Virus record (IMG/VR): IMGVR_UViG_3300027782_000078
Coordinates: 6,476-70,475 of that record
Source of the DNA: a virus
Reading direction: 5' to 3' (one strand)
Length of the DNA stretch: 64,000 nucleotides
Shown: in pieces, positions 27,119 to 64,000 of the stretch
Layout of the letters: every line of letters starts with the position of its first letter
How positions within the stretch are numbered: the first letter of the stretch is position 1
Notes under the pieces: generated by a model
Told to the model about the DNA's origin: nothing
Database searches by the model: none
Seen by the model: the letters and a program-made list of their open reading frames with translations, nothing else
Translations under genes and position numbers: made by a program

Positions 27119-27153
27119 TACGATACTCTCGAATACGGACGGATTCGTGCAAA

Positions 27154-50730: not shown

Positions 50731-51573
50731 TCAACTCGTCGTCGGGGGTAGCTCGGGTTTGTAGCCCATTGCCATGCAGGTTCGCATGATGAGCATCCGC
50801 ACTCTCTGGAGACTGCGGATGCCTCCCTCATGGCATCGTAGCGTGCGTCGACTCATTCCTGTTTTCTTTGCCAGTTTGGTCTGACTGAGATTCAGGTCTG
50901 TGCGGGCACGGAGAATGTCGTCGGCAGATGGCCAGTCCGGATCGTTGACAACGAACTCGGAAACTGGTTCGACGATGTCTCCCTCCCGTGTGGCAGGAAG
51001 TGGATCGGAACGAATGGGTGCTGGCTTTTTCGGGCCAGTAGAAAAAAGATACCGTGTGGTCATTCCGATGTTGCCACCGAAATGACGGTCAGCAATTTCC
51101 ACCAGTTTCTCATGTTCCTCTGCGTTGACACGAATCATGATGGTGCAGACGGAATCGCGATCCGGTGGCGCTACCGAATCGTTGACAGGCTTGCGCAGCG
51201 CAAGTCGCAACACTTCAACAGCCAGTTCGTTGACGAGCGTGCTGCGTGCCTGCAGGCGCTTGTAGGTAGTGACGGGAATGAGTGCGGAGATGAGCCGTGA
51301 TGGCCTTGGCTGCGTAGACAGCAGAACCTTTCCGAGCTCAGGCCGGACATGCTGGTAATGATCCGTTGACTCAGTCCACTTTGAGAAATCGATGTTCTCT
51401 GAGGAAGACTTCCTTGTCAATGGAGTAGATTTTTTCTCTATGTTGATGGACCAGCTTCGATAGGCTGCGGACCCTGAGGCTGGTTCCGTTTTTGTTGACG
51501 CCGACGATTTTGCGGATGTGCCCTTTGTGGCTTTTGGTTCTGGTTTCCCAGATGCTGCCGATCTCGGGTTCAT
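50731..51573 (-). CDS. Transcriptional regulator (ribbon-helix-helix-like segments plus C-terminal XRE HTH); true start probably downstream of 51371
   Basis: ILRARTDLNLSQTKLAKKTGMSRRTLRCHEGG HTH; 5' part overlaps another credible ORF. Confidence 0.65.
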   Translation of the reverse strand: MNPRSAASGKPEPKATKGTSAKSSASTKTEPASGSAAYRSWSINIEKKSTPLTRKSSSENIDFSKWTESTDHYQHVRPELGKVLLSTQPRPSRLISALIPVTTYKRLQARSTLVNELAVEVLRLALRKPVNDSVAPPDRDSVCTIMIRVNAEEHEKLVEIADRHFGGNIGMTTRYLFSTGPKKPAPIRSDPLPATREGDIVEPVSEFVVNDPDWPSADDILRARTDLNLSQTKLAKKTGMSRRTLRCHEGGIRSLQRVRMLIMRTCMAMGYKPELPPTTS

Positions 51574-52077: not shown

Positions 52078-52086
52078 GCCTCCAAG

Positions 52087-52172
52087 TGCCGGAAGTGGGA
52101 GTCGAACCCACACGGCGGATTAGCCGCCTCCTGATTTTAAGTCAGGTATGTCTGCCATTTCATCATTCCGGC
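52087..52172 (-). tRNA. tRNA-Leu(UAA)
   Basis: CCTGA-CTTAAAA-TCAGG arm; long variable arm; no intron. Confidence 0.92.
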
Positions 52173-52980: not shown

Positions 52981-53177
52981 GCCGTAGGACCATTCATGTT
53001 GACTCCGTTCGGATTTGCAATCCGTTGGCAGTCAGCACTTTTTTCCAATTGTCATTTTCTTTGCCTGCATGCTTTTCCATTGCGCTCTTTTGCGCGTTGA
53101 CTGCAGCTCCGGAAATGACACGATGACCATTTCACCTTGCCCGCATGTTCCGTTGATACACCGGATCACCACGTTGA

Positions 53178-53253
53178 GTTGATACTCTCGGTTGGCACAT
53201 TCCGTTGATATATCTGGTTGGCACATGTAGTTGGCACATCCTAGTTGATATGC
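53178..53253. repeat. 13-bp-period array of GTTG(AT/GC)A units
   Basis: Units at 53178, 53191, 53204, 53217, 53230 and 53244. Confidence 0.75.
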
Positions 53254-53440
53254 ACTTTCTTTATGAAGTTGTCAATGTGCAATTTGCCCATGAAGGTTTG
53301 TGGTATGCAATTCAGCTAACCACAAATTCCTCGAACAGGCTTTCTAGTCCGGACGCTTCCGTTCGAACCGATGTTCTAGTATACCAGCTCCAGCTCAGTT
53401 GTCAATGACGGAATTGCATAAATGATTGAATAGAGGAACG

Positions 53441-53493
53441 GCACCTACGACATTAACGACTCGGGAGCCGAAGGTCGTTAATGTCGTAGGTGC
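53441..53493. repeat. Variant module hairpin (20-bp perfect inverted repeat)
   Basis: GCACCTACGACATTAACGAC...GTCGTTAATGTCGTAGGTGC. Confidence 0.8.
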
Positions 53494-53509
53494 GATCTTT
53501 GTAAAGAAA

Positions 53510-53538
53510 CCCTCCGGGTAAGGGGGTTACCCGGAGGG
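53510..53538. terminator. GC-rich hairpin, possible terminator
   Basis: CCCTCCGGGTAA-GGGGG-TTACCCGGAGGG. Confidence 0.5.
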
Positions 53539-53717
53539 CGGCGGGAAAATCGCATCATGCACATCAATCACTACAGGTGCAGAGATGTGACAAGGTAGGC
53601 AGTTCCTGCCATCGTTATCATGACAGGAAGGCTTCGCTTGCGTTCATGATGCTAGCCTGTCACTACATGCCACAAGGCGGCAGCATGATTGGTGGGGGAA
53701 GCACCTGTGACAGATTT

Positions 53718-54050
53718 CTATGGGGACTCGGCCCCGAAATGTTGTTCCTCAGTTTTCTTGCGAAGAAAGAATGTCTCAATTTCAACATTGAGTTGTTCTA
53801 CTATCTGAGGGGTAACGTAGTCAGACAACGCTTCTTCGGCTGCGTTGCATATTTCACGCTTGTCATCATATGAAAACGGATAATTTTCATATTCGTCAGG
53901 AACAGAGGCAGATGAAACCAAGTCATCCCAAGTGTGGAATACCATTACCGCTGGAATCTTGTGATACAAATACAATACCTGAATAATGTCCACCACTTCA
54001 TCGTGTGACATCTCGGACAATTGTTTCTTGAGGGCTTCCAAGTCAAACAT
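53718..54050 (-). CDS. Hypothetical acidic protein
   Basis: ORF; start uncertain (54050 or 54092). Confidence 0.55.
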   Translation of the reverse strand: MFDLEALKKQLSEMSHDEVVDIIQVLYLYHKIPAVMVFHTWDDLVSSASVPDEYENYPFSYDDKREICNAAEEALSDYVTPQIVEQLNVEIETFFLRKKTEEQHFGAESP

Positions 54051-54057
54051 TTTCTTC

Positions 54058-54354
54058 TCAATCGGAATGCTTATCTTGCTTGTTTGCGACATGTTCGCCG
54101 TAGTTTCCCATGAGCAGCAAGTTGTGTTTTTGCATTTCATGAGTCATCATTTTTGATGACAAGACGAGTTCTTCCATTCCCGCTATGTAATCAAACTCAT
54201 CGTCATCAGCAGAACGTTCATTAATCAATGAAAAATCAGCGATAAGATTGACAATCTGATTGAGCAACACCGTTGCATCGTAATCTTGTTGCAGATATTT
54301 CTCGCAGAGAATGGCAACGTTGCTGTTTTGTTGGTTAAGATCTAGTTCTTCCAT
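54058..54354 (-). CDS. Hypothetical acidic protein
   Basis: TAATG-coupled start. Confidence 0.55.
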   Translation of the reverse strand: MEELDLNQQNSNVAILCEKYLQQDYDATVLLNQIVNLIADFSLINERSADDDEFDYIAGMEELVLSSKMMTHEMQKHNLLLMGNYGEHVANKQDKHSD

Positions 54355-54617
54355 TATTCTATCCTCATGATTCTGCAAGTATTCACGCACCATCCGTGCG
54401 CGTCGCTGAGTTGATCAACAACGTCTTCAATAATTTCTTCGTACATGCGCTCATTACTAAGCACGGTGTCCAATGGAGGAATCGAATCATAGTTGTCATC
54501 GAGTTTTACCAACAATGTCTTTGGCAAGTCACTAAAATGATGACACGAACAACATTCTGGCGCGTCACCATCATCAGTCTCAGTGTCCCAGTAAATCTCT
54601 GTTACCTTGAATATCAC
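54354..54617 (-). CDS. Hypothetical protein
   Basis: VTEIYWDT.....LP....D.LSD.HGWCV pattern; GTGA overlap. Confidence 0.6.
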   Translation of the reverse strand: MIFKVTEIYWDTETDDGDAPECCSCHHFSDLPKTLLVKLDDNYDSIPPLDTVLSNERMYEEIIEDVVDQLSDAHGWCVNTCRIMRIE

Positions 54618-54904
54618 TGTGATTTTTTCTCCATTTTTGACAAACCAAAGCGGTCAAGGTATTCTATCTGATTTTCCAAGACATCCTGCCCCTGATCTCC
54701 GCATATCTCTTGCAACAGTTCGGCGCATTCCATGAGAATGCTGATTGCAGCCTCGTGAGTAATTGGCTTGTACCCTAAGACCGCTATGCTTTTATGCACA
54801 TCTTCTGCCGACCAGACAATTGCAACAAGATCGTTTTTCTCTGCAATCCTGAAGATTCTGTCACTTGCCTCGTTGGCATCCTTCTCTGTTGATACGTCGG
54901 ACAT
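54614..54904 (-). CDS. Hypothetical protein
   Basis: AIVWSAEDV motif shared with 57590-57862; AAGGA RBS. Confidence 0.6.
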   Translation of the reverse strand: MSDVSTEKDANEASDRIFRIAEKNDLVAIVWSAEDVHKSIAVLGYKPITHEAAISILMECAELLQEICGDQGQDVLENQIEYLDRFGLSKMEKKSQ

Positions 54905-54927
54905 GAGTCCAGATCCTTTCTGCCTTA

Positions 54928-55021
54928 AGTATACAGACGGCAGCGATTGACAACAAGTTGCAATCCGGTTGCAGTCACTCTCTCCCACCTACGACACTTT
55001 CGAGAGAAAGTGTCGTAGGGG
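54928..55021 (-). repeat. Cassette-boundary module, short variant copy
   Basis: TTGTTG-N17-TATACT promoter, GTTGCAATCCGGTTGCA, CCTACGACAC hairpin at 54988-55019. Confidence 0.8.
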
Positions 55022-55052
55022 CGACACTTCTCGAACTATTGGAGCTGTGGTT

Positions 55053-55454
55053 TTAATTCAACACAAACGGCACAAGATCAGCATCATCATCCTGCATATC
55101 GGAAATGATATGCATGAATAATTCCTGAAAGATCTTTTCCATTTGCATGTGAGCAAGAAGATGTCCTTCGGCGATGGTCTTGGCGCACATTGCATCATCA
55201 CGAAGTCGGATCATTGTATCGGACATCTTGTCTGCCGACTCTTGCAATTCTTCGATGCCATCATCAACATTGGCTTCTTCAACAATCTTGCAAAACATGT
55301 CGTGACGAGCGAGAGCCGCAGTAAGTCCGATGCGCTTATAGGTATCTTTCGGATTGGAAGGATCGGTTTCCATAAGCATGCTGCGCATTTCTTCCCTCGT
55401 CTTTGAGGCAAGCGTCAAAAATCTGTGGAATGTGGTATCTGAGTTACTGTTCAT
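55053..55454 (-). CDS. Hypothetical protein
   Basis: 133-aa helical ORF. Confidence 0.6.
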   Translation of the reverse strand: MNSNSDTTFHRFLTLASKTREEMRSMLMETDPSNPKDTYKRIGLTAALARHDMFCKIVEEANVDDGIEELQESADKMSDTMIRLRDDAMCAKTIAEGHLLAHMQMEKIFQELFMHIISDMQDDDADLVPFVLN

Positions 55455-55821
55455 TGCGATTCTCGGAGCTTTCTAAATCCGACTTGATTGATTCAAGCTC
55501 AAGCAATGCATTCTTCATTGCGTTCATTGTGCGGTCATTGTCAGGGTGAATACTGATCGTAACCCAGACTTGCACCATTTCGTCGTTTTTTCTGTCACGA
55601 TGAAATACCTTGGGCATTGACTGTGCTTTCTGAATGTGATATGCGCCAACTCCGGGGCCATCAATAAACTTTGACGGAGTGAACTTGGAGCGATAGATCG
55701 CGTGCTTCTTGTTCTCAATACGATGATATAGCGTGTCTGCTATTCTCTCGTATTTTTTTGGATCGTTATTCCACATAATGCGCTTTCCATTTTGATTGGC
55801 AGTTTTGGAGGGGTCTGCCAA
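55444..55821 (-). CDS. Hypothetical protein
   Basis: 125-aa ORF. Confidence 0.55.
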   Translation of the reverse strand: MADPSKTANQNGKRIMWNNDPKKYERIADTLYHRIENKKHAIYRSKFTPSKFIDGPGVGAYHIQKAQSMPKVFHRDRKNDEMVQVWVTISIHPDNDRTMNAMKNALLELESIKSDLESSENRNEQ

Positions 55822-55830
55822 CCCTGTGTC

Positions 55831-56481
55831 TTACTGAACAACCTTCCAGTTGTCTTCGGTCTTGACCCATGTCCTTGGCAACATCACGTCGATCATCTGC
55901 TGTTGCTTCTCTGGAGTGACGCCGCTTGCCCTGTGCAAGTCGTTGAGAATGCCGCGAATTTCCCGTAGCGACATTTCAATGCGCTCAAGTGTTTCCGTGT
56001 GTGCGTTGACGGTGCTGCTCATCTCGGCAATGGCCGTGCTGGTGTTGTCAACTTCGGTACTCATGGCATCAAGGGAGTGACCGTAATCGTCAGCAAAGCT
56101 GCAACTGACAGAGCTGTCTTCGAGAACATCTCGAAATGAGAAATCGTTCAATGTGGATTCGACACTGGCTGCAACGGTTCGCCTGATTGCACTCAGGTCA
56201 ACAAGGTCTCGTTCATACAAGTTGTCAACGATCTTTTGTACGGTCGTGTCAATCTCTGCCAGCGCGGGAGCATTTTGAATGAAGTCGTGCAAGGTGACAT
56301 CAACCTGAAACAAGCGATCCTTGACAACCGAAACATTGCGTCCAAGGTTCTCGATTTTTTCGTTAGCAGCAACGATTGACGTTTCGTACTTGGTAAAGGT
56401 TTTCGTCAAATCGGTGATGCCGACAAACGATGATACCTTTGCGCGGATGCTGCTAAGACTTCCGGTAAGCGTAGAGAGCAT
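55831..56481 (-). CDS. Coiled-coil hypothetical protein
   Basis: AAGGAGG RBS after the module promoter. Confidence 0.65.
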   Translation of the reverse strand: MLSTLTGSLSSIRAKVSSFVGITDLTKTFTKYETSIVAANEKIENLGRNVSVVKDRLFQVDVTLHDFIQNAPALAEIDTTVQKIVDNLYERDLVDLSAIRRTVAASVESTLNDFSFRDVLEDSSVSCSFADDYGHSLDAMSTEVDNTSTAIAEMSSTVNAHTETLERIEMSLREIRGILNDLHRASGVTPEKQQQMIDVMLPRTWVKTEDNWKVVQ

Positions 56482-56526
56482 TTTGCCCCTCCTTGTTGTT
56501 TCTGGTCACATCCTGACCACACATGA

Positions 56527-56660
56527 ATAATACCAACGGCAGAGACAGAACGCCAGTTGCCAGTGGTTGCAATCCGGTTGCACCGTTATGTGCGCAACGG
56601 AATAATCGTGACCACCGACGACGCGCATGCGTCGTCGGGGCCGGTCTCCCGGCCCCTTTT
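56527..56660 (-). repeat. Cassette-boundary module copy 1
   Basis: TGGCGT-N17-TATTAT promoter; boxes; palindrome 56615-56638; GC hairpin. Confidence 0.9.
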
Positions 56661-56661
56661 G

Positions 56662-56889
56662 TCATTGCGCTTTTTGTCGATTGATCCATTTCTGACAGAC
56701 AATTGCAGTGTATTTTTCGAAGTCAGAATAGGCAACGTCTACGATGTCGTCATATCCTCCGTACTCTTCTATCTCGTGCATGATCGCTGCAACCATCGCT
56801 GGAGGAATATCGAGTTCGTATTTATGAACGAAATCATCAATGCTGTCCGTGTCCCAGACAAGTTCTTTTTGGAACAGTACTTTGTCCAT
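56662..56889 (-). CDS. Hypothetical acidic protein
   Basis: AAGGAAGGA RBS. Confidence 0.6.
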   Translation of the reverse strand: MDKVLFQKELVWDTDSIDDFVHKYELDIPPAMVAAIMHEIEEYGGYDDIVDVAYSDFEKYTAIVCQKWINRQKAQ

Positions 56890-56890
56890 G

Positions 56891-57121
56891 TCATCCTTCC
56901 TTGTTGAACGAAATGCCCACATCGGCATGCTTTACCCACAAGTCGAAAATCTTACCTTCGGTACCATCGACGATTTCTTTGATTTCCGTCAAGCGATGCT
57001 CAATGTTCTCAATGCGATCATCATTGACAATCGCGTCCTCGATCATATTGAGTTGTTGGGAAATCTTGTCGATTGCCTTGGTAAGTTCCAGTACGGCATG
57101 CGCTAATTCATCGTTACTCAT
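56891..57121 (-). CDS. Hypothetical coiled-coil protein
   Basis: GAGGA RBS; ATG 57121. Confidence 0.6.
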   Translation of the reverse strand: MSNDELAHAVLELTKAIDKISQQLNMIEDAIVNDDRIENIEHRLTEIKEIVDGTEGKIFDLWVKHADVGISFNKEG

Positions 57122-57386
57122 CTGTTTCGTCCTCTGCCTCGTCGTCCGTAATCCAGTTGTCAAACGCTGCCTGTGCAAGTTCGGCGTTGGGAAAAGCTTG
57201 CACGTCCTTGAACCCGTAGTTGTCCACAGCGAGGATGAACGACAAACCCTTCCACTCCGGCCAATCAACTGGCTCTATCAACAAGGTGGCGTGTCCGTCA
57301 CCATACTGCACGTCTCCGGTTGTGGGCCATGAGCCATCAAGTGACAACTCATACAAGTGATCCATGAGCGTTGAAAAGTTGTTCAT
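57114..57386 (-). CDS. Hypothetical acidic protein
   Basis: GGAGGA RBS; ATG 57386. Confidence 0.65.
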   Translation of the reverse strand: MNNFSTLMDHLYELSLDGSWPTTGDVQYGDGHATLLIEPVDWPEWKGLSFILAVDNYGFKDVQAFPNAELAQAAFDNWITDDEAEDETDE

Positions 57387-57417
57387 TGTCAGTCCTCCGC
57401 GTTGATGTCCTGTCATA

Positions 57418-57553
57418 AGTATACAGACGGATGCGTTCAGACGCTAGCAAATGAGGTCTCAGTTTGGTTGCATCGCTATATGCGCAACGGAATAATCGTG
57501 ACCACCGACGACGCGCATGCGTCGTCGGGGCCGGTTTCCCGGCCCCCTTTTTT
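57418..57553 (-). repeat. Cassette-boundary module copy 2
   Basis: TAGCGT-N17-TATACT; palindrome 57505-57528; GC hairpin. Confidence 0.9.
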
Positions 57554-57589
57554 GTTCTCCGCGATCATTATTCTTCAAGTGCTTGTTCG

Positions 57590-57862
57590 TCAGTCATTGG
57601 ACAATTCCTTTCGTGCTAATTCAAAGTATCGTCTTGCGCTAATCCAAAGAAATTCTTGAATATCTTCTTCGGCCGCAAGAAGAATTACCTGTGCTTGTTC
57701 AGTAGTTACTGTTGAATCATTGCTCAATGATGTTGCAAGTATTTGTTGCACATCTTCTGGCGTCCAGATAAGTGTGACAAACTTGTTCTTTTTTGCCCAA
57801 TCGTGCATTTCCGCAGCAATGTCTTTTGCAGGAAGCGTAATGCCAATTTCTCCATCAGTCAT
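57590..57862 (-). CDS. Hypothetical protein
   Basis: LIWTPEDV motif shared with 54614-54904. Confidence 0.6.
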   Translation of the reverse strand: MTDGEIGITLPAKDIAAEMHDWAKKNKFVTLIWTPEDVQQILATSLSNDSTVTTEQAQVILLAAEEDIQEFLWISARRYFELARKELSND

Positions 57863-58043
57863 TGTTCAGTTCCATGTTATCGTTATCCTCTTCGTCGTCA
57901 TCGTCGGCGACCTCAACACCGAGGTAACGCTTCGCATCCAAGATTGCGTCCTTCAGATGCCTAGACATGGCATCTGATGAAACGTCTTCTTCGATCTGCT
58001 CGACAAGGTTCGTTAGCAAATCGATGGCTTCCTCAACCTTCAT
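57855..58043 (-). CDS. Small acidic protein
   Basis: AAGGAG RBS; TAATG-coupled start. Confidence 0.6.
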   Translation of the reverse strand: MKVEEAIDLLTNLVEQIEEDVSSDAMSRHLKDAILDAKRYLGVEVADDDDEEDNDNMELNND

Positions 58044-58381
58044 TAGTCTTCTCCTTCTCGAAGCCATGCTTCGGCTCTTGCCAGTCCCGATACAATCGCC
58101 GGAACATCCGCAAGCATTTCCTCGTTCCAGTTGACGGTCAACGACGCAAACGCGGCGCATGCTGCCCGGACAAGCACCGTGACAATGAGTTCGGTGGTTG
58201 CCCCGGCATCATCCGTCAGGCGTTCGATGATGCAGTTTGCAAAATCCTGCTCTGCCTGTAGGATGTCAATGCGTTGCCAGTCATCACCATCATGGGTGGA
58301 TGATGAACCCCACTGATCCACTCCGTCTACCAGCAAGCCACGGACGATTTCTCGTCCCTCTTTGATCCGTGTGTCACTCAT
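58043..58381 (-). CDS. Hypothetical protein
   Basis: AAGGA RBS after the module promoter. Confidence 0.6.
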   Translation of the reverse strand: MSDTRIKEGREIVRGLLVDGVDQWGSSSTHDGDDWQRIDILQAEQDFANCIIERLTDDAGATTELIVTVLVRAACAAFASLTVNWNEEMLADVPAIVSGLARAEAWLREGED

Positions 58382-58400
58382 TCTGCATCCTTTTCTCTTT

Positions 58401-58574
58401 ATTATACAGACATAGCCGTCTACATGCATGTACGTAGGGTTGCAGTGAGGTTGCAAGAATATGTTGACAATGGAGTAATTGCGACCACCGACGACGCGCA
58501 TGCGTCGTCGGGGCTGCTGATTATTTATTGACGCAACAGGATAACCGGACGGGATTCCCCGTCCGGTTATTGCG
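58401..58574 (-). repeat. Cassette-boundary module copy 3 (second hairpin replaced by a different one at 58541-58570)
   Basis: ATGCAT-N17-TATAAT; palindrome 58488-58511. Confidence 0.88.
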
Positions 58575-59438
58575 TTATTGAATAACTGTGAGTTGCCTGA
58601 TCATTTTCCGCTCGGACTTGATCTTGGCATGACCCTTGTACATAACTGGTACATCAGGGTTATCCCAACATGTCCTGCATTCACCACATTCGTTATTTTG
58701 AAGTGATGATGGACAAGTGTATTCGCCACGGGTGGACACTCCGGTTCCTGCACTCAATCCATTTACAGTCGGAGCGGGAATGTTGGCTGGTAATGCACTG
58801 GGTCGCACGGTGGTATTTCCTACTGCGTTCATTTCTTTCATGATGTTCAGAATGACGGTCGCCCGTTCCTTTTTCTCCATAGTCCACTTTTTGTTTATGT
58901 ACCATCCTCTTGTTGGTATCCAGAAGCGAACGGATGGATCAATGGCATACACACGACGGATGACACGTAACCAAGCGTTGGCATATTCTGGACTGTACAT
59001 ATCTCCGCTATCATGGATGCGGAAATACTTGATTTTTTTGGTAGACAGAATAATTGCACCAACCATGTAGTTGACCCATGCGTCAACATTATCGCGCAAC
59101 ATTATTTCTGTCCAAACCAAACGTTCCAATTGTGCGTTTTTGACAACGTCAGTGTTGTACCGTCCGCTTCTGGCATAGCAACCGGCGCAAATAAATACAA
59201 GCAAATCAATAATCTGATCAAACATGGAACGTGTTTCGTCGTCGACTGCGTTGACATGAGTGACGGCACTCGGACAAGTAACAAACGATCCGCCCAGACG
59301 GTCATCCTTTACGCCTAGAGCGGGAATACTAAACGACTGTCCGGGCATCTTGGACGGCGTTGTGAGCAATTTTGTTGTCGTTTCTGGAACAATGATGTTT
59401 CCATGACGACGAACAAACGTTTCGTGCTTGGCAACCAT
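58575..59438 (-). CDS. Gp88-family Fe-S/radical-SAM-like phage protein
   Basis: SKMPG..FSIPA, CP...C.GCYA, FRIHDSGD, W.PTR, CP......CGECRTCW. Confidence 0.8.
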   Translation of the reverse strand: MVAKHETFVRRHGNIIVPETTTKLLTTPSKMPGQSFSIPALGVKDDRLGGSFVTCPSAVTHVNAVDDETRSMFDQIIDLLVFICAGCYARSGRYNTDVVKNAQLERLVWTEIMLRDNVDAWVNYMVGAIILSTKKIKYFRIHDSGDMYSPEYANAWLRVIRRVYAIDPSVRFWIPTRGWYINKKWTMEKKERATVILNIMKEMNAVGNTTVRPSALPANIPAPTVNGLSAGTGVSTRGEYTCPSSLQNNECGECRTCWDNPDVPVMYKGHAKIKSERKMIRQLTVIQ

Positions 59439-59458
59439 TACGGTTTCCTCCTGCACTA

Positions 59459-59587
59459 ATAATACCAACGATGCAGGCTATTATCAACGTCCCGAGGTAT
59501 CAATTCGGTTGCAGGAATATGGCAACAACGGAATAATCGATACCACCGACGACGCGCATGCGTCGTCGGGGCTGGTTTCCCAACCCC
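59459..59587 (-). repeat. Cassette-boundary module copy 4
   Basis: TTGATA-N17-TATTAT; palindrome 59546-59569. Confidence 0.9.
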
Positions 59588-59593
59588 GGCGCG

Positions 59594-59800
59594 TTACCGC
59601 CAATCTTCGACACCCATATAATGGATTACGCGGGTCTGGCCCTCGTCAATGAGAGCCTCCATGTCAGCAGTTTCGTACCGCATCGTCTCGCTAACGAGTT
59701 CTTCGATGACTGCTTCAACCTTGTCCGCGTCTCCCTCAATGCCATCACGAAGTATTTTTTCAAAGTCGCTTCTTGTAGTTGCTACTTGTTTTCGTTTCAT
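59594..59800 (-). CDS. Small hypothetical protein
   Basis: ATGA overlap with upstream gene. Confidence 0.55.
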   Translation of the reverse strand: MKRKQVATTRSDFEKILRDGIEGDADKVEAVIEELVSETMRYETADMEALIDEGQTRVIHYMGVEDWR

Positions 59801-60384
59801 TTTTCTTCTTCCGTGTTTTCTTCAAGCATTTTCCCGAACTCTTTGGCTGAGTTGATAATGTCAAACTCATTGATAATATCTTCAGGAATATCAGATATGT
59901 CTTCAATCTGATAATGTGCATCGTGGTCGTTTTTCCATTTGCCGCAGAACATCATTCCCCATTCAATGTAATAAGCGATAATCTCGTATCCGTTTTTCAC
60001 TGCATGTTCGTAGGCAGGAATGGGGGGTGCCCAAGCAGTATCAAACGAAATGTTGACAGTATACATTTCGCCGTCGTGGTGTATTGGAGCAAGACCGGAC
60101 TGGTCTGCGTCGTAAGCAAAATCGGGATTGATATCCCACTTGGTGCCCCAGTTGTTGATACGCCAAGTGTATCCATCGACTGCACCGTACTTCTCGATAT
60201 GAGACTTGTCTTCTTCGGTGTATTCATCGACTGACCTGAACGACGTTGACTTCTCCATGAGTTCCTTGGGAACAGGATGCCAATACTCAAGCAGACTGCC
60301 GTCAAGGTAAGCGGCCCTTGCTTTCTCCAGTTCGCTTTTGTCTGCATGGGATAATTCAACATTGTTGTTGCACCAATTGGGCAT
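59797..60384 (-). CDS. Api92/YubB ferredoxin-like (DUF1281) family protein
   Basis: MPNWC.N...WRINNWGTKWD...FDTAWAPP...E.GM.FCG. Confidence 0.85.
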   Translation of the reverse strand: MPNWCNNNVELSHADKSELEKARAAYLDGSLLEYWHPVPKELMEKSTSFRSVDEYTEEDKSHIEKYGAVDGYTWRINNWGTKWDINPDFAYDADQSGLAPIHHDGEMYTVNISFDTAWAPPIPAYEHAVKNGYEIIAYYIEWGMMFCGKWKNDHDAHYQIEDISDIPEDIINEFDIINSAKEFGKMLEENTEEEK

Positions 60385-60405
60385 TTCGGTTCGCCTCCTG
60401 ACATA

Positions 60406-60534
60406 ATTATACAGACATAGCCGTCTACATGCATGTACGCAGGGTTGCAGTCCGGTTGCAACGATATGATGACAGCGGAGTAATCTCGACCCCCGACGAC
60501 GCGAACGCGTCGTCGGGGCCGGTTTCCCGGCCCC
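60406..60534 (-). repeat. Cassette-boundary module copy 5
   Basis: ATGCAT-N17-TATAAT; palindrome 60493-60516 with loop GAAC. Confidence 0.9.
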
Positions 60535-60542
60535 AACCTATC

Positions 60543-60710
60543 TCAGCGGGACATTTCCTTGTACTGGTATTCAGCAATGGTCTTGCGTGCTTCGTAGTAC
60601 ATCTGACGCCAACGGTCTGCTTCTTTGGTTTCCCAGATGCACAATTTACCAAGCACAAACAGGGATGCCAGAAAAAGCGCGAAGAGCAAAATATCAATCC
60701 ACATCGCCAT
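60543..60710 (-). CDS. 55-aa single-TM protein (below ORF-track cutoff)
   Basis: MAMWIDILLFALFLASLFVLGKLCIW...; TAAGGA RBS. Confidence 0.6.
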   Translation of the reverse strand: MAMWIDILLFALFLASLFVLGKLCIWETKEADRWRQMYYEARKTIAEYQYKEMSR

Positions 60711-60716
60711 TCGTCC

Positions 60717-61115
60717 TTATGGTTGATCTTCGAAAGGTACAGTATTGTAGAACGATGTCCAAGGATGACCAACACTTTCGGAACCATCATATTCCGATAT
60801 GATGTATTCTCTCCCCAAAGCGCGATCCCATTCATGAATGTACAGTGTTGATATTCCTTTCATTCCAGCATTTTCTCCGAGTGCTTCGACGCAAGCAATC
60901 AGCAGCGGATTTGTCCGGCTTTCAGAATAACTGAAATCCCATATGACGCGATCCATCAACTGTTCTGTCGTCTCGTCTGGCTTGACAGTAAAGCCACGTT
61001 GGATCAGAAACGCCTTCGGATCAAGGCCGCTAGCAAAAAACCACGCCTTTGCTTGATCCGACAAGTGAAATCCCCCGAACTGGATGTTGATAACTACCTT
61101 GTAGGTTGCCGTCAT
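60717..61115 (-). CDS. Conserved phage hypothetical protein
   Basis: KVVIN..FGGF.LS...R..P.LI..VE.LG...I.EYDG.E motif. Confidence 0.75.
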   Translation of the reverse strand: MTATYKVVINIQFGGFHLSDQAKAWFFASGLDPKAFLIQRGFTVKPDETTEQLMDRVIWDFSYSESRTNPLLIACVEALGENAGMKGISTLYIHEWDRALGREYIISEYDGSESVGHPWTSFYNTVPFEDQP

Positions 61116-61141
61116 TTCCGCCCCTTTCGTGTCCTGTCATA

Positions 61142-61270
61142 AGTATACAGACGCATGCGTCTATTGTCACGGGTTGACGGTTGCAATCCGGTTGCACCGT
61201 TATGTTGGCAACGGAATAATCGAGATCACCGACGACGCGTATGCGTCGTCGGGGCCGGTTTCCCGGCCCC
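61142..61270 (-). repeat. Cassette-boundary module copy 6
   Basis: GTGACA-N17-TATACT; palindrome 61229-61252. Confidence 0.9.
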
Positions 61271-61276
61271 GATCAT

Positions 61277-61696
61277 TTACACCACAAGAAAGATTTCTTC
61301 AGGAGGATTTGGAAGCAATTCCGCATTGGCCTGTTGCTCGCGGATTTTTTCAGCAAGCATGTCCTCAATCTTCATGCAAAAATCCAGATGAATGTTTTCG
61401 GCAACTTCGATCACGACCGGCTTGCCCATTCCAAGTTTTCCATCCAGCAAAGGAGAGATGCGTTTGATGAACTGCATGTGAACCCTTGGGTCAGCATAGT
61501 GAACCCAGTCGGGCGATATTTTCCATGAAAAATAAGGAGAATACCACGGCAATTCAAATGCCGGAGCATCGGCGGGAACTTTGGTGTCCTTCCAGAGTTC
61601 CAGAAACTCACGTTCAATAGAACGCAAATCACATTGCTGAAAAAAAGCATGGCTCTGTGGAGCGTTGGCAAAGTCAATCGTTACCCTAAAGTACAT
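61277..61696 (-). CDS. Hypothetical protein
   Basis: GGAAGGA RBS; ATG 61696. Confidence 0.6.
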   Translation of the reverse strand: MYFRVTIDFANAPQSHAFFQQCDLRSIEREFLELWKDTKVPADAPAFELPWYSPYFSWKISPDWVHYADPRVHMQFIKRISPLLDGKLGMGKPVVIEVAENIHLDFCMKIEDMLAEKIREQQANAELLPNPPEEIFLVV

Positions 61697-61988
61697 CGTT
61701 ATTTCCTTCCGTTGGAATAAGGTCTCCGTACCCATCTGCCTTGAATGCCTTGATCAATTTGACAGCATCCCAATATGCCGTCTCGGTGATATTTTGCAGC
61801 ACCAGATCAAGATGATGATACCCTTGCCCGTACGCATCGTCATATTCGCGACGGTATCTCTCAACCGCGCGAATTGTTACTGGTATCAATCCAACAGGCC
61901 CATCCATGTAGGGCCTGTTGTCCTTGACCACGACGCCCTTGAATGTTGACCGATACGCAGCGTCTTCGTCAAAGCGATGAAAGTCCAT
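61686..61988 (-). CDS. Hypothetical protein
   Basis: AAGGAGG RBS; ATG 61988. Confidence 0.65.
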   Translation of the reverse strand: MDFHRFDEDAAYRSTFKGVVVKDNRPYMDGPVGLIPVTIRAVERYRREYDDAYGQGYHHLDLVLQNITETAYWDAVKLIKAFKADGYGDLIPTEGNNDVL

Positions 61989-62016
61989 GATCTTTGCCCT
62001 CCTTCGTGTTGCTACT

Positions 62017-62151
62017 AGTATATATCCGTTACCGTTGGCTTGCAAGATGTTGGCGGTTTCAATTCGGTTGCACCGTTATGTTCGTAACGGAATAATCGAG
62101 ACCACCGACGACGCGCATGCGTCGTCGGGGCCGGTCTCCCGGCCCCTTTTT
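62017..62151 (-). repeat. Cassette-boundary module copy 7
   Basis: TTGCAA-N17-TATACT; palindrome 62105-62128. Confidence 0.9.
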
Positions 62152-62244
62152 TCATTGCGCTAATGAAACGCCAGCCATTACGGCACCCAATCCTATTAGG
62201 GAAGAAATTGCCATGTATGCTAAAAACGCAATCAAGTATTTCAT
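62152..62244 (-). CDS. 30-aa hydrophobic peptide
   Basis: MKYLIAFLAYMAISSLIGLGAVMAGVSLAQ; AAAGGA RBS. Confidence 0.55.
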   Translation of the reverse strand: MKYLIAFLAYMAISSLIGLGAVMAGVSLAQ

Positions 62245-62261
62245 GCATTTTTCCTTTTGTG

Positions 62262-62550
62262 ATACAAGCAATCCCCTGTCGCCTGTGCTGTCAAGCGTGA
62301 TCTTCTCTCAATAAAGAAGATCCGGGCATCAACCATCCTCGCGGATGTCCGCCGCGTTGCTTGCTATCTCGCTTGTTTTTCAATACTTTCCCGTTAGGGT
62401 AAACAGCGTGTGAGATGCCTCTCAGCGGCCACACTGTTATTTATGTATCGTTGGATACCATGCACCACGAACTAGTATCGTGTCTCATGCACATGGTTTA
62501 CAATCCCAAGTCCGATATGGGCAGCACAGGCGACAGTCGATTGCCTGTGT
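62262..62550. ncRNA. Candidate structured RNA, family unrecognised
   Basis: ~30-bp imperfect closing stem enclosing at least four hairpins; no credible CDS. Confidence 0.45.
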
Positions 62551-62629
62551 GGTTGGCAGTTTTCACTGGAGTTCTGCCAACTCCAGAACGACCAAGATAT
62601 TTAGCGTCGATCCTGTAACGACGTTGCGT

Positions 62630-62971
62630 TTACGCTTCGCTAATTGGAGCGAAAATGTCGCCGGAGTGTGTAACGATCTTTCCGTCCCGATGACTGTTGA
62701 TAATGGTCTCGATAGTGTTGATGCACTCGCTCGGATTGTAGATCGGCGCGTACTGGCACACGGTGACAATGGAATTACGGTAGAGAATTACGTAGGAGCC
62801 GTCCTGTCGCGAATAGGACGCACCCGTTTGCTCTGGCTTGAGTTCTGGAGCGATGGTGATGATGCCCATATAATCCCCATCGGAGTAATTCCAGTTGAGC
62901 GAACCGTTCGTGTGGTTCTGGGTTCGCGTCCACACGGTAACTTCTGGAGCCGCCTTTTTCGGAGTTGCCAT
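62630..62971 (-). CDS. Hypothetical protein
   Basis: 113 aa; AAAGGGA RBS after the module promoter. Confidence 0.6.
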   Translation of the reverse strand: MATPKKAAPEVTVWTRTQNHTNGSLNWNYSDGDYMGIITIAPELKPEQTGASYSRQDGSYVILYRNSIVTVCQYAPIYNPSECINTIETIINSHRDGKIVTHSGDIFAPISEA

Positions 62972-63019
62972 CCGAGTTTCCCTTTCCTGTCGGGTGGCTT
63001 CACCATCCGATCTGCTATA

Positions 63020-63149
63020 AGCATATAGCCTGCACCGTCTGCATGCAAGGACTTTCTGGTTTCATTTCGGTTGCAACGATAATCGCATAATGCAATAATC
63101 TCCCACACCGACGACGCTTGCGCGTCGTCGGGGCCGGTTTCCCGACCCC
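63020..63149 (-). repeat. Cassette-boundary module copy 8
   Basis: TTGCAT-N17-TATGCT; palindrome 63108-63131. Confidence 0.88.
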
Positions 63150-63156
63150 GACCAAT

Positions 63157-63495
63157 TTACCGTTGCCTATTTGCGATGTACTCATACATCTTCATGGCGT
63201 CTGCGGTTTCCTGATCGCGAAGACGTTTGCGCTCTTCGTCTTTTTCCTTGGCGGTCTTGAACCATCCGTCCATGAAGGTCACCAATTGCGTATTGGCAAT
63301 TTCAGGGTCATCAGAAGCAATCTCGCAAAGACTTTCGTATTCGGTGATAAACTGCACTGCTTCATGATTTTCAAGAACCATTTCAATGCCTGCTTCACTA
63401 TCATCAACAATGACGTTATGCCGTGATGTGATATTGCGATAGAATAGCCCCAGTCCGCCTGTAAGAATGCTGTAGCGTTGTTTCTTCTCGGTCAT
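63157..63495 (-). CDS. Hypothetical protein
   Basis: AAGGAG RBS; ATGA overlap. Confidence 0.6.
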   Translation of the reverse strand: MTEKKQRYSILTGGLGLFYRNITSRHNVIVDDSEAGIEMVLENHEAVQFITEYESLCEIASDDPEIANTQLVTFMDGWFKTAKEKDEERKRLRDQETADAMKMYEYIANRQR

Positions 63496-63854
63496 GACAA
63501 TTGCTCCTTCGGTGGCAATAACAATTTCTGAAGCGTTGGCAGAAACAGTGGTTCGCGGTCTGGATTGAACTCCGCGTCAATTGGCGCATCACTGTCGGGC
63601 AACAGTCTCCCTGTTGTTTGTGGACTAAACTCGTAGAGACATGATGCAGGAGAAATATCAAGAATGAACATTCTGCCATTATGCCTAATGGCAAACTCTC
63701 CACTAATATGAGATATCTGTCGTGTCTTATACAGTCGTTGTGTCTTCAACGTTCTGCAATTTGCAAGAAACATCATGTAGACATTTTCGTCATGGTTGAT
63801 AGCGTTTTCCAGTAAAGCGCGAACCTTATTCTGTTTTGTCCATTCGTCACTCAT
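63492..63854 (-). CDS. Hypothetical protein
   Basis: AGGAG RBS after the module promoter. Confidence 0.6.
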   Translation of the reverse strand: MSDEWTKQNKVRALLENAINHDENVYMMFLANCRTLKTQRLYKTRQISHISGEFAIRHNGRMFILDISPASCLYEFSPQTTGRLLPDSDAPIDAEFNPDREPLFLPTLQKLLLPPKEQLS

Positions 63855-63872
63855 GACTTGCTCCTACCCTCT

Positions 63873-63991
63873 AGTATATAGACGCATGTGTCTATAAGCA
63901 AGTTACAATCCGGTTGCGGAGATAATGTCGCAATGCAGTAATCGGAAACACCGACGACGCCCCAAGCGTCGTCGGGGCGGAAAAATACCCC
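63873..63991 (-). repeat. Cassette-boundary module copy 9
   Basis: TTGCTT-N17-TATACT; palindrome 63951-63975 with 5-nt loop. Confidence 0.88.
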
Positions 63992-64000
63992 ACTGCCGGA

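What the first reader, a model, noticed from the sequence alone, without database searches (positions are those of the whole stretch)
53441..64000. Regular array of promoter-plus-hairpin modules dividing small genes into ~0.9-kb cassettes (candidate gene-shuffling system)
Seen: the hairpin CCGACGACGC-N4/5-GCGTCGTCGG starts at 56615, 57505, 58488, 59546, 60493, 61229, 62105, 63108 and 63951, with variants at 54988 and 53443. All copies are intergenic and co-oriented. The nine full copies are 736-1058 bp apart whether the unit holds one, two or three genes. In the direction of transcription each boundary reads: stop codon, GC hairpin, palindrome, ATTAYT box, TGCAACC boxes, -35/N17/-10 promoter, RBS of the next gene. 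The array probably continues past the window edge. Known: T4-type PeSL elements (promoter early stem-loops) and integron attC arrays are partial precedents, but I do not recognise this sequence or architecture. Inference: each unit is a self-contained expression cassette that can be gained, lost or reordered through the module. No dedicated recombinase is visible in this window.
Basis: partly seen in the sequence, partly recalled or inferred. Interest (0 to 1): 0.88.

Follow-up and report, generated by a model that had tools for sequence, protein, structure and literature searches.

The report
Repeated terminator-promoter modules in a phage
An uncultured large freshwater phage splits a block of small genes of unknown function into units of about 0.9 kb with a repeated 140-base hairpin-plus-promoter module, much like the promoter/stem-loop cassettes known from T4-like phages, so it is a new variant of a known design.

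Summary
Nine exact CCGACGACGC-N4/5-GCGTCGTCGG hairpins (0 in 100 shuffles) each sit in a co-oriented module of about 147 nt on the minus strand. Each module reads: stop codon, GC hairpin H1, hairpin H2, ATTAYT box, two TGCAACC boxes 11 bp apart, -35/N17/-10, RBS. There are two variants downstream. A 97%-identical metagenome contig carries three more copies beyond the window, giving at least 14.

The window is a 41%-complete viral contig from an uncultured myovirus with a distant SPO1-type capsid. Array genes are almost all ORFans.

The closest known kind is the PeSL (promoter-early stem-loop) cassette of T4-like phages. No integrase, resolvase or Y1/HUH transposase was found in this contig or in a 97%-complete relative.

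The shuffling idea is partly supported.
- The region is hyperplastic: gene order is scrambled in relatives, and patches are 95% identical between otherwise distant phages.
- Modules recombine with each other: one gene-conversion patch and chimeric halves.
- However, all indels seen among near-identical genomes are single genes with breakpoints at gene boundaries.
- Module positions are conserved, and no module-to-module joint was found.

Still unexplained are the invariant H2 stem and the very even spacing (among the 2 most even of 19,448 placements).

The parts
63860..63996 (-). Module m63951. It has an alternative upstream hairpin, H2 (loop of 5 nt), an ATTACT box, boxes, and TTGCTT-N17-TATACT.
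   Evidence: R1 match of 104.6 bits; alignment A2. Its 5' half is shared with L125 module 8975, which includes a terminator hairpin with a T-rich tail.
63007..63154 (-). Module m63108: H1, H2, boxes, TTGCAT-N17-TATGCT.
   Evidence: R1 match of 134.8 bits; alignment; RNA fold -37.6 kcal/mol, z -3.6.
62004..62151 (-). Module m62105: H1, H2, boxes, TTGCAA-N17-TATACT.
   Evidence: R1 match of 149.1 bits. The promoter scan lists 62045-62017. The H1/H2 segment is 100% identical to m56615.
61129..61275 (-). Module m61229: H1, H2, boxes, GTGACA-N17-TATACT, with the palindrome AGACGCATGCGTCT in the spacer.
   Evidence: R1 match of 155.7 bits. The promoter scan lists 61170-61142. Sequence.
60393..60539 (-). 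Module m60493. Its centre carries a patch like the paralogous module m58488.
   Evidence: R1 match of 151.9 bits. Against its L125 orthologue there are 22 of 81 differences in the centre, and 4 of 55 and 0 of 57 in the flanks. It is 1 of 25 different from m58488.
59446..59592 (-). Module m59546: H1 (with G-U pairs), H2, boxes, TTGATA-N17-TATTAT with TG.
   Evidence: R1 match of 140.6 bits. The promoter scan lists 59487-59459.
58388..58539 (-). Module m58488. It lacks H1. A separate long hairpin lies upstream at about 58571-58535, followed by H2, boxes and ATGCAT-N17-TATAAT.
   Evidence: R1 match of 122.9 bits; fold -56.6 kcal/mol, z -7.5; sequence.
57405..57551 (-). Module m57505: H1, H2, boxes (second box degenerate), weak -35, TATACT.
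   Evidence: R1 match of 150.7 bits; alignment. It is 100% identical to its L076 orthologue.
56514..56661 (-). Module m56615: H1, H2, boxes, weak -35, TG-TATTAT.
   Evidence: R1 match of 141 bits; sequence; fold -39.9 kcal/mol, z -4.2.
54915..55042 (-). Variant module v54988. H2-type hairpin of 14 bp with compensatory changes; no ATTAYT box; boxes; TATACT.
   Evidence: R1 match of 78.3 bits; sequence. The L076 orthologue has two further compensatory pair changes.
53378..53540 (-). Variant v53443. A canonical terminator (53539-53509) is followed by a long H2-type hairpin (53490-53444) and TTGACA-N16-TATACT (53405-53378).
   Evidence: Sequence. The terminator and the promoter are both listed. 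The hairpin was found by pattern. R1 does not find this copy.
53718..63854 (-). About 25 small genes (30-287 aa) in ten units between the modules. Examples are 63854-63492 with 63495-63157; 61988-61686 with 61696-61277; 60384-59797; 59438-58575; 58381-58043 with 58043-57855 and 57862-57590; and 56481-55831 with 55776-55444 and 55388-55053.
   Evidence: My own ORF/RBS calls. Of 20 proteins scanned, 1 has a Pfam family above its cut-off (GP88, PF17338, on 59438-58575) and 4 have a PHROG of unknown function at E below 1e-5.

Best explanation
The array is a set of composite regulatory modules of the PeSL type (promoter-early stem-loop). It lies in the ORFan-rich, presumably early or host-takeover, region of an uncultured myovirus of roughly 170-185 kb from lakes.

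How each module is read, in the direction of transcription:
- The preceding unit ends 5-24 nt after its stop codon in a very stable hairpin. This is H1 in 7 of 9 copies, and otherwise another hairpin, twice with a U-rich tail. I infer that it terminates or attenuates transcription, or protects the mRNA 3' end.
- H1 is followed at once by a second hairpin, H2. Its 10-bp stem is invariant in sequence while its loop is free.
- About 90 nt further on, the module starts the next unit from a sigma-70-type promoter (17-bp spacer, TATnnT -10, often a weak -35).
- That promoter is preceded, at about -61 to -44, by two TGCAACC boxes in 11-bp phase. This is the layout of a class-I activator or UP-type site.

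Shown: the anatomy, the conservation, the base-pair covariation, the restriction to this lineage, and recombination between modules.

Inferred: promoter, terminator and activator-site activity, early timing, and use of the host RNA polymerase.

The modules are long enough (about 100-147 nt at 60-100% identity) to be substrates for general homologous recombination. Conversion and chimeric modules show that this happens. Cassette gain or loss through the modules is plausible, as in the PeSL model, but was not observed. The turnover actually seen is gene by gene, at gene boundaries.
For: Anatomy and fixed register of all parts in 10 copies. All 10 full-length model matches lie on the gene strand.

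Hairpins: H1 and H2 fold as two adjacent 8-bp hairpins, at -36 to -44 kcal/mol and z -3.3 to -5.0. H2 is 100% paired in 24 distinct copies. Eight pairs are invariant and 2 pairs carry changes on both sides. Zero of 500 shuffles reach the observed covariation score. The orthologous variant in L076 changes CCT...AGG to CCC...GGG and C-G to T-A. H2 loops range from 4 to 12 nt. This argues for a folded hairpin rather than a fixed-spacing double-stranded operator.

Where H1 is missing, a separate hairpin precedes H2. It has a U-rich tail in v53443 and in the m63951/L125-8975 type.

The array genes are small ORFans and are not paralogues of each other.

The PeSL definition and model were read in PMC2839356 (sections 13 and 16) and PMC4122927 (abstract and passages): a sigma-70-like promoter plus a stem-loop, about 100 bp, repeated in hyperplastic regions upstream of ORFans, with lineage-specific stem-loop consensus and recombination between copies.

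Recombination between modules: a conversion patch, chimeric halves, and nearest neighbours that differ by segment.

No tyrosine recombinase, serine recombinase or Y1 transposase was found in G000, G001 (97% complete), G002 or G003.

The module is lineage-specific. There are 0 matches at E<0.01 in 5 relatives and 0 box pairs in relatives. There is no match in 50,697 phage records and no Rfam family.
Against: No canonical intrinsic terminator is called on the sense strand at any of the 9 full modules. H2 is followed by UGGUC, not a U-run. In 3 modules, H1 plus a T-run reads as a terminator only on the antisense strand.

Only 3 of 9 full modules pass the promoter scanner. Several -35 hexamers are poor.

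The AT-rich upstream region that PeSLs have is replaced here by GC-neutral boxes. Module G+C is 0.47-0.58.

The host is unknown, so 'sigma-70-type' is an assumption about its polymerase.

There is no usable transcript evidence. The one RNA run gave eight small contigs, which cannot show ends or strand.

A plain terminator does not need the perfect sequence invariance of the H2 stem, seen in 12 exact-stem copies while neighbouring module segments differ by 10-50%. Nor does simple promoter/terminator logic need the very even spacing.

All 5 structural differences among near-identical genomes have breakpoints outside the modules.
Confidence: 0.7

Rival explanations
1. H2 is not a terminator part but a sequence-specific protein target. 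This reading also covers the ATTAYT box and the GCAAC-type boxes. The protein could be a phage or host regulator, an insulator, or a roadblock comparable to mycobacteriophage stoperators. Alternatively it could be an RNA-binding factor acting on the 3' ends of early transcripts. The array would then be a regulon switched on or off as a block. This overlaps with the best explanation rather than excluding it.
For: Eight of 10 H2 pairs never vary in 24 distinct copies, while the loop and the flanking module segments vary. Wherever H1 is absent, another terminator-type hairpin is supplied upstream, and H2 stays attached to the downstream ATTAYT box. This holds even in the promoter-less partial copy at L125 8378. 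The boxes form direct repeats in 11-bp phase at about -61 to -44. A related inverted CCGTTGC lies further upstream in several copies. Weak -35 elements suggest dependence on an activator. A gene with a weak HTH_3 match lies just downstream of the array at 50731-51573 (E 2.7e-4, below the Pfam cut-off).
Against: No binding protein has been identified. The variants keep pairing while changing sequence, which fits structure better than sequence read-out. Loop lengths of 4-12 nt exclude a simple dimer operator on duplex DNA. Gene conversion among copies, which was observed, can also keep a stem identical without any binding protein.
Confidence: 0.3
2. A dedicated hairpin-directed recombination system moves whole units. 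It would be integron-like (attC-type folded hairpins with an integrase) or REP/RAYT-like (a Y1 HUH transposase acting on hairpins). The enzyme would be encoded in the roughly 59% of the genome missing from this contig.
For: The hairpins are co-oriented and evenly spaced and flank unrelated gene sets. The module family is confined to one lineage, as if it had spread recently. The contig is only 41% complete, so an enzyme gene could be missing from it.
Against: Phage_integrase, Resolvase and Y1_Tnp give 0 matches in G000, in the 97%-complete relative G001, in G002 and in G003, and the positive controls rang. G001 lacks the modules, however, so its lack of an enzyme is weak evidence. Each unit has its own promoter, unlike integron cassettes. 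H2 is a 24-nt perfect hairpin without the extrahelical bases and two-box arms of attC (attC features recalled, not tested). No whole-unit gain, loss or reordering and no module-to-module joint was seen in L125, L076 or the contigs of 3 DNA runs.
Confidence: 0.05
3. The module is itself a small non-autonomous mobile element (MITE-like). It has inserted into many intergenic sites, bringing a promoter with it.
For: There are 14 copies in one lineage and none in relatives at 54-78% capsid identity. The genes between copies are unrelated. In two pairs of copies the shared sequence extends a few codons into the upstream gene end.
Against: No terminal inverted repeats or target-site duplications are visible at module edges in the alignments. 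No empty site is available for comparison. All copies point the same way and sit in one array, which fits local duplication or recombination better than transposition. No transposase was found.
Confidence: 0.07
4. The array is an assembly or chance artefact.
For: Repeats do break assemblies here. Logan contigs end at modules, and the viral contig itself ends inside the array.
Against: Two independent metagenome contigs, L125 and L076, carry the same array at 95-98% identity with the same module order. Contigs of three DNA runs from three studies cover it. The exact pattern occurred 0 times in 100 shuffles.
Confidence: 0.01

Closest known systems
PeSLs (promoter-early stem-loop cassettes) of T4-like phages (Arbiol et al. 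2010, PMC2839356; Comeau et al. 2014, PMC4122927)
   Same: Both are composite repeated intergenic motifs of about 100 bp or more. Both combine a sigma-70-like promoter, a GC stem-loop, the stop codon of the upstream gene, and the RBS and start of the next gene. Both are concentrated in a hyperplastic region upstream of ORFans and have a lineage-specific stem-loop sequence. In both, copies recombine with each other and no dedicated recombinase is required.
   Different: The phage here is not T4-like; its capsid protein is distantly SPO1-type. The stem-loop lies about 90 nt upstream of the -35, not within or next to the promoter. There are two tandem hairpins, one with an invariant stem. GC-neutral boxes (ATTAYT, and two TGCAACC boxes in 11-bp phase) replace the AT-rich upstream region. 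The copies form one regular co-oriented array. Mini-circles and PeSL-to-PeSL deletions, which were shown for phi1/RB49, were not observed here. The supplementary figures of these papers, which hold the activity assays, could not be seen.
Host-takeover module of Bacillus phage SPO1 (passages of PMC6873191; Stewart et al. 1998 is cited there and was not read)
   Same: Both are terminal-region clusters of about two dozen small early genes. Both are organised in many short operons, each with its own strong promoter and RBS, in a large myovirus. The capsid protein here is distantly related to SPO1's.
   Different: From what I read, SPO1's promoters are not described as embedded in a long conserved repeat with hairpins. 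No protein homology between the two gene sets was found: array proteins gave only unknown-function PHROG hits.
Integron attC cassette arrays
   Same: Both have co-oriented hairpin-forming sites that separate unrelated small gene cassettes of roughly 0.5-1 kb.
   Different: No integrase was found. Each unit here has its own promoter. The hairpin is short and perfect. No cassette movement was observed. The attC features used for comparison are recalled, not tested.
REP/BIME elements with RAYT transposases; mycobacteriophage stoperators and SAS/ESAS repeats (all recalled, none read here)
   Same: All are short conserved palindromic or asymmetric intergenic repeats. They are oriented with transcription and act on mRNA 3' ends, on gyrase or protein binding, or on elongating polymerase.
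   Different: No Y1 transposase was found. The module here is much longer and carries a promoter. The phage shows no integrase, and I did not search for a repressor.

Membership tests
PeSL-type composite promoter/stem-loop cassette (a functional class, not a homology family) | Sigma-70-like -35/-10 promoter inside the repeated motif | tested here: inconclusive
   TATnnT is invariant and the spacer is 17 bp in 10 of 10 aligned copies. Only 3 of 9 full copies and 1 variant pass the consensus scanner. Activity was not tested and the host is unknown.
PeSL-type composite promoter/stem-loop cassette (a functional class, not a homology family) | Stable stem-loop within the same motif | tested here: met
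   H1 and H2 fold at -36 to -44 kcal/mol, z -3.3 to -5.0. H2 is 100% paired in 24 distinct copies, with 2 compensatory pairs.
PeSL-type composite promoter/stem-loop cassette (a functional class, not a homology family) | AT-rich tract upstream of the -35 | tested here: not met
   The region upstream of the -35 holds the TGCAACC boxes and the ATTAYT box. Module G+C is 0.47-0.58.
PeSL-type composite promoter/stem-loop cassette (a functional class, not a homology family) | Many copies concentrated in a hyperplastic region, upstream of ORFans | tested here: met
   There are 11 copies in 53.4-64 kb and none elsewhere in the contig. The genes are ORFans. Gene order is scrambled in relatives.
PeSL-type composite promoter/stem-loop cassette (a functional class, not a homology family) | Genes that differ between close relatives lie next to a cassette; exchanges occur in or near it | tested here: inconclusive
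   Three of 5 events abut the 5' edge of a module, with breakpoints 10-30 nt upstream of H1. Two events lie inside a unit. One conversion patch lies inside a module.
PeSL-type composite promoter/stem-loop cassette (a functional class, not a homology family) | Deletion between two cassettes and a mini-circle carrying a chimeric cassette | not testable with these tools
   Only assembled contigs of the runs could be laid, not raw reads. Among the listed joints, none joins two modules of the window. The 61196>63937 joint is an extra module lying beyond the window.
PeSL-type composite promoter/stem-loop cassette (a functional class, not a homology family) | Occurs in a T4-like myovirus | tested here: not met
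   The capsid protein's best matches are SPO1-like Bacillus phages at 28-29% identity over 32% of its length. It matches PHROG 752.
Integron (attC array with IntI) | Tyrosine recombinase gene | tested here: not met
   PF00589 gives 0 matches in G000, G001, G002 and G003, and the controls rang in 14 of 14 genomes. G000 is only 41% complete.
Integron (attC array with IntI) | Promoterless cassettes read from one common promoter | tested here: not met
   Every unit has its own -10 and spacer at a fixed distance from the hairpin.
REP/RAYT system | Y1 (HUH) transposase gene | tested here: not met
   PF01797 gives 0 matches in the 4 records, and the controls rang in 6 genomes.
Canonical intrinsic terminator | GC hairpin followed within 0-2 nt by a U-run on the transcribed strand | tested here: not met
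   No minus-strand terminator is called at the 9 full modules. One is called only at v53443 (53539-53509). H1 followed by a T-run is called on the plus strand at 3 modules.
Any curated RNA family (Rfam 15) | Match at or above the gathering score | tested here: not met
   Only tRNAs reach the gathering score. The long variant hairpin gives a sub-threshold chance match to a microRNA model.

The most novel reading that the evidence does not exclude
The invariant-stem hairpin H2 may be the recognition site of an as yet unseen, structure-specific phage enzyme, encoded in the missing 59% of the genome. The evenly spaced array would then be a hairpin-based cassette capture and exchange system of a lytic phage, a 'phage integron' in which every cassette brings its own promoter.

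A weaker version of the same idea keeps the array regulatory. The evenly spaced, inward-pointing promoter array would have a mechanical role, such as transcription-driven genome entry. That would explain both the spacing and the orientation.
Probability: 0.07. Interest if true: 0.85.

Novelty: new variant of a known kind. Interest (0 to 1): 0.45.

Why it matters
Composite promoter/stem-loop cassettes (PeSLs) have been described under that name only in T4-like phages. In the paper library, the only phage papers among the 25 listed for that name were the two founding ones, and one search listed two more phage papers that mention it.

Finding the same design in an unrelated, uncultured freshwater myovirus suggests that repeated regulatory cassettes in ORFan-rich regions are a convergent, general solution of large lytic phages. 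The design here has its own sequence, a stricter architecture, and direct traces of recombination between copies.

The module is also a practical handle:
- It marks early transcription units in a genome where almost no protein has a known family.
- Its invariant hairpin and phased boxes are concrete targets for finding the regulator of this phage group.
- The four co-existing arrangements of one unit, within and between lakes, give a natural system for measuring how phage accessory genes turn over.

Tried and rejected
Searches for the module elsewhere:
- The exact hairpin in IMG/VR contigs gave only two unrelated single hits, L005 and L006. Neither matches R1.
- Megablast of the 10.5-kb array and blastn of one module against 50,697 phage records found nothing.
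- R1 run on five relatives gave no match at E<0.01.
- The 16-nt box pair in IMG/VR gave 11 single hits. Only L168 and L170 (the same sequence) resemble the boxes, and they have no H2.
- A relative search with the 287-aa array protein in IMG/VR found none.

Leads that proved irrelevant:
- The repeated 14-mers in G002 and G003 are 138-bp coding tandem repeats, not intergenic modules.
- Repeat searches in the homologous regions of G001, G002 and G003 showed no module of this kind. G001 has different repeats of its own.

Laid contigs:
- The joint 61196>63937 (X4; shorter side only 20 nt) and the loose end at 61177 were first considered a three-unit deletion. I rejected this because the 27 letters between the sides and the loose end both match the extra module at L125 7362-7528, which lies beyond the window.
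- The 'goes back 465' joint in X4 was considered a circle junction. One end of that 386-nt record reads like a sequencing adapter (recognised from memory). Together with the 57829>58041 joint it reads more simply as a swapped order of two genes. I could not decide between the two readings.
- The RNA run X20 gave eight small contigs that are 100% identical to the window. They show neither transcript ends nor strand, and they may be DNA carry-over.
- Parts of the stretch without contig cover in some runs are not taken as absence.

Other negatives:
- Sigma70_r2 gave no match in G000, G001 or G002.
- The T7-type RNA polymerase family gave no match, but its control rang nowhere, so that answer is void.
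- A tandem-duplication origin of the units was rejected, because the genes of different units are not paralogous.
- The supplements of the PeSL papers, which hold the promoter and terminator assays, are closed and were not seen.

Full report
1. WHAT IS THERE

It occurred in none of 100 shuffles.

The genes of 52-64 kb lie on the minus strand. Read on that strand, each hairpin is part of a conserved module of about 147 nt. The module reads in this order:
- the stop codon of the upstream gene;
- 5-24 nt later, a GC hairpin H1 (GGGGCCGG-GAAA/GAGA-CCGGCCCC), present in 7 of 9 copies;
- directly abutting H1 and sharing two C's with it, the hairpin H2 of the finding;
- TGGTCnCGATTAYTCCGTTG;
- CATA;
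- TGCAACC-N4-TGCAACC (two 7-mers in 11-bp phase);
- a -35-like hexamer, a 17-bp spacer, and TATACT, TATAAT or TATTAT;
- a strong RBS and the start codon.

From the -10, the boxes lie at about -61 to -44.

A covariance model of the module (R1) finds 10 full-length copies in the 70,475-bp record, all on the minus strand and all inside 54.9-64 kb. A further, looser variant lies at 53378-53540. It has a canonical terminator, a long hairpin with the same outer arms, and TTGACA-N16-TATACT.

As RNA, H1 and H2 fold into two adjacent 8-bp hairpins (-36 to -44 kcal/mol, z -3.3 to -5.0).

2. WHERE IT LIES

The window is bases 6476-70475 of an IMG/VR viral contig. The contig is estimated to be 41% complete, and it ends where the window ends.
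- The virion genes include a major head protein distantly like that of SPO1-type phages (28-29% identity over a third of its length) and structural PHROGs.
- Most large proteins have no Pfam or PHROG family.
- There are 7 tRNA genes.
- Thirteen related IMG/VR contigs share the head protein at 54-78% identity. One, G001, is 184 kb and 97% complete.
- Public runs that hold the array are mostly labelled freshwater or lake metagenomes (14 studies). Three of them carry it at 90-99% identity in long contigs.

3. THE ARRAY IS LONGER THAN THE WINDOW

It returned many single chance hits and two multi-copy contigs.
- L125 is 97.2% identical to window 57876-64000. It runs 3.4 kb further upstream and has three more H2 hairpins, two in full modules and one in a partial module without an obvious promoter.
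- L076 is 95-98% identical to 54388-60426.

The lineage therefore has at least 14 copies over about 17 kb.

4. THE HAIRPIN IS SELECTED AS A HAIRPIN, AND ITS STEM SEQUENCE IS FROZEN

Twenty-six module copies from the three sources were aligned (24 distinct rows).
- H2 is paired in 100% of cells.
- Eight pairs never vary and two carry changes on both sides.
- 0 of 500 shuffles reach the observed covariation score, and sliding the partner by 1-3 columns destroys the pairing. The alignment was fitted to the model's structure, which favours it.

Independently, the orthologous variant hairpins of the window and L076 differ by two compensatory pair changes.

Loops range from 4 to 12 nt and vary freely. 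That speaks against a fixed-spacing operator on duplex DNA.

Where H1 is missing, another hairpin sits upstream of H2. Twice it has a U-rich tail. H1 and its substitutes therefore look like the terminator part. H2 looks like a separate element that stays attached to the downstream boxes.

On the sense strand, neither H1 nor H2 is followed by a U-run, and the scanner calls no sense-strand terminator at the nine full modules.

5. THE GENES

My ORF/RBS calls give 1-3 small genes per unit. Of 20 proteins scanned:
- one has a Pfam family above its cut-off (GP88, unknown function);
- four have unknown-function PHROGs at E below 1e-5.

Genes of different units are not paralogues; there is one weak pair at E 4e-5. 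The repeats are therefore the modules, not the units.

6. SPACING

I took the 17 internal gene boundaries that I called between the first and last full copy. The seven that carry a module are among the 2 most even of all 19,448 possible choices (CV 0.108).

This depends on my gene calls. It also weakens when the variants, the L125 extension and the relatives' units are added, where spacings run from 631 to 1641 bp. I have no tested explanation for the evenness.

7. TEST OF THE SHUFFLING IDEA

(a) Distant relatives.
- G001 has homologues of 9 of the 26 array-region proteins within 161-178 kb, in a different order.
- Three patches are 91-96% identical in DNA, although the head proteins are only 57% identical. 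The patches are one gene and two non-coding stretches.
- The g61988 homologue has a different upstream neighbour in each of G002, G003 and G004.
- None of these relatives has the module or its boxes. G001 has other repeated intergenic elements of its own.
- The region is therefore a hot spot of exchange, and the module family is specific to this lineage.

(b) Near-identical genomes.
- All shared modules sit at the same places in the same order.
- The differences are single genes:
  - g57862 is absent in L125;
  - g56889 is absent in L076, with a 5-bp microhomology at the junction;
  - g58043 is replaced by 30 nt in L076, X2 and X9;
  - an 85-codon gene present in L076 and G001 is reduced to a 9-codon remnant in the window;
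  - two genes are in swapped order in X4.
- Three of the five breakpoints lie 10-30 nt upstream of H1, and none lies inside a module.
- One unit (58.4-57.5 kb) exists in four arrangements. Two of them occur together in one sample.
- No joint between two modules of the window was found. The one candidate is an extra module beyond the window.

(c) Recombination between modules does occur.
- Module 60493 differs from its L125 orthologue at 22 of 81 central positions, against 4 of 55 and 0 of 57 in the flanks. There it matches the paralogous module 58488 at 24 of 25 positions.
- Module 63951 and L125 module 8975 share about 110 nt of their 5' half but have unrelated promoter halves.
- The nearest neighbour of a module changes from segment to segment.

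(d) No tyrosine recombinase, serine recombinase or Y1 transposase was found in this contig or in three relatives. A PD-(D/E)XK nuclease gene at 43594-44523 could belong to a general recombination system. That is inference only.

8. COMPARISON WITH WHAT IS KNOWN

PeSLs of T4-like phages are repeated motifs of about 100 bp. They combine a sigma-70-like early promoter, an AT-rich upstream tract and a Gn-loop-Cn stem-loop, and they are concentrated upstream of ORFans in hyperplastic regions. Reporter assays showed that they are strong promoters and terminators. They are proposed to mediate insertion, deletion and mini-circle formation by recombination between copies. In that work, 10 of 14 differential ORFans were contiguous to a PeSL (PMC2839356, sections 13 and 16). 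Other T4-like lineages have their own stem-loop consensus (PMC4122927, abstract and passages).

The present array works like that class and shares most of its descriptive features. It differs in these ways:
- the phage group;
- the position and number of the hairpins;
- the invariant H2 stem;
- the replacement of the AT tract by phased boxes;
- the regular single array;
- the absence, so far, of any observed cassette-to-cassette event.

The SPO1 host-takeover module has 26 small early genes in several short operons with strong promoters and RBSs (PMC6873191, passages). It is the nearest analogue in gene organisation.

Integron attC arrays and REP/RAYT systems fail the tests that could be run (see the membership table).

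The module matches no Rfam family and no deposited phage genome.

9. VERDICT

The most likely function is a composite hairpin-plus-promoter regulatory cassette, of which there are at least 14 copies. It divides an ORFan-rich, probably early, region into short transcription units (confidence about 0.7). Activity, timing and the role of H2 and the boxes are inferred, not shown.

The gene-shuffling interpretation is partly supported. The region turns over fast and the modules do recombine with one another. However, the turnover actually seen is gene by gene at gene boundaries. A dedicated recombination system is unlikely (about 0.05) but cannot be excluded for a contig that is only 41% complete.

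I rate it a new variant of a known kind, of moderate interest. The open points worth following are the frozen H2 stem, the phased boxes and the even spacing.

Noticed in passing
window 62248-62590 (minus strand), with the ORF at 62244-62152: A stretch of about 340 nt with no convincing ORF is 95.9% identical to G001 177766-178099, although the head proteins are only 57% identical. It begins with a copy of a repeat that occurs four times in G001 (the GGAGTTGGCAGA...CTGCCAAC type, with two alternative hairpins). In the window it is followed by a 30-codon hydrophobic ORF; in G001 a different gene follows. It may be a structured leader or a small RNA.
   Followed up: partly
window 53510-53720 (minus strand): A non-coding stretch is 91-92% identical to G001 169132-169286 and ends in a canonical terminator (53539-53509). 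The deepest contig of the one RNA run lies on 53539-53806. It is a candidate small RNA.
   Followed up: no
window 53150-53254 (minus strand): Iteron-like short repeats lie downstream of the variant promoter: TGTGCCAAC three times, interleaved with TATCAAC four times. They overlap a doubtful 64-codon ORF. This could be an origin or a regulatory site.
   Followed up: no
window 57560-58381, with L125, L076 and runs X2, X4, X9: One unit exists in four gene arrangements among genomes that are 95-98% identical. These are 58381|58043|57862; 58381|58043; 58381|57862|85-aa gene; and 58381|57862|58043. Two of them co-occur in run X9.
   Followed up: partly
G001 160-184 kb (L041, L042): The complete relative has its own, unrelated repeated intergenic elements in the homologous region. 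One, of about 60-130 nt with the hairpins CCGC-TTCG-GCGG and GCACATGC-TCCC-GCATGTGC just before the RBS, occurs five times. Two families of short hairpin elements occur four and three times. None has an obvious sigma-70-type promoter.
   Followed up: partly
L168 3534-3610 (= L170 4992-5071): An unrelated IMG/VR contig has four TTGCAA(C) repeats in 11-bp phase directly after a terminator-type hairpin. The first two equal the box pair of the module. It may be the same kind of factor-binding site in another phage.
   Followed up: no
G003 23.0-36.3 kb and G002 81.1-84.5 kb: Relatives carry up to 30 tandem 138-bp coding repeats in very large genes. I first mistook these for intergenic modules.
   Followed up: no
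window 34205-39313 (minus strand) and other large ORFs: A 1702-aa ORF has no Pfam or PHROG match. The ORFs of 672, 540, 481, 400, 376, 358 and 299 aa have no Pfam match, and the three of those also scanned against PHROGs (672, 540 and 376 aa) have no PHROG match. The phage group is largely uncharacterised.
   Followed up: no
window 43594-44523 (+) and 50731-51573 (-): The first is a PD-(D/E)XK nuclease gene (E 1e-17). The second is a 280-aa protein with a weak HTH_3 match below the Pfam cut-off, lying just downstream of the array. They are possible recombination and regulatory proteins respectively.
   Followed up: no
window 23159-27243 and 52086-52172: There are seven tRNA genes: Gly, Arg, Thr, Gln, Lys and Ser in a cluster, and tRNA-Leu(taa) at the downstream edge of the array. 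The tRNA-Leu is 90-96% identical in G001, G002 and G003.
   Followed up: no
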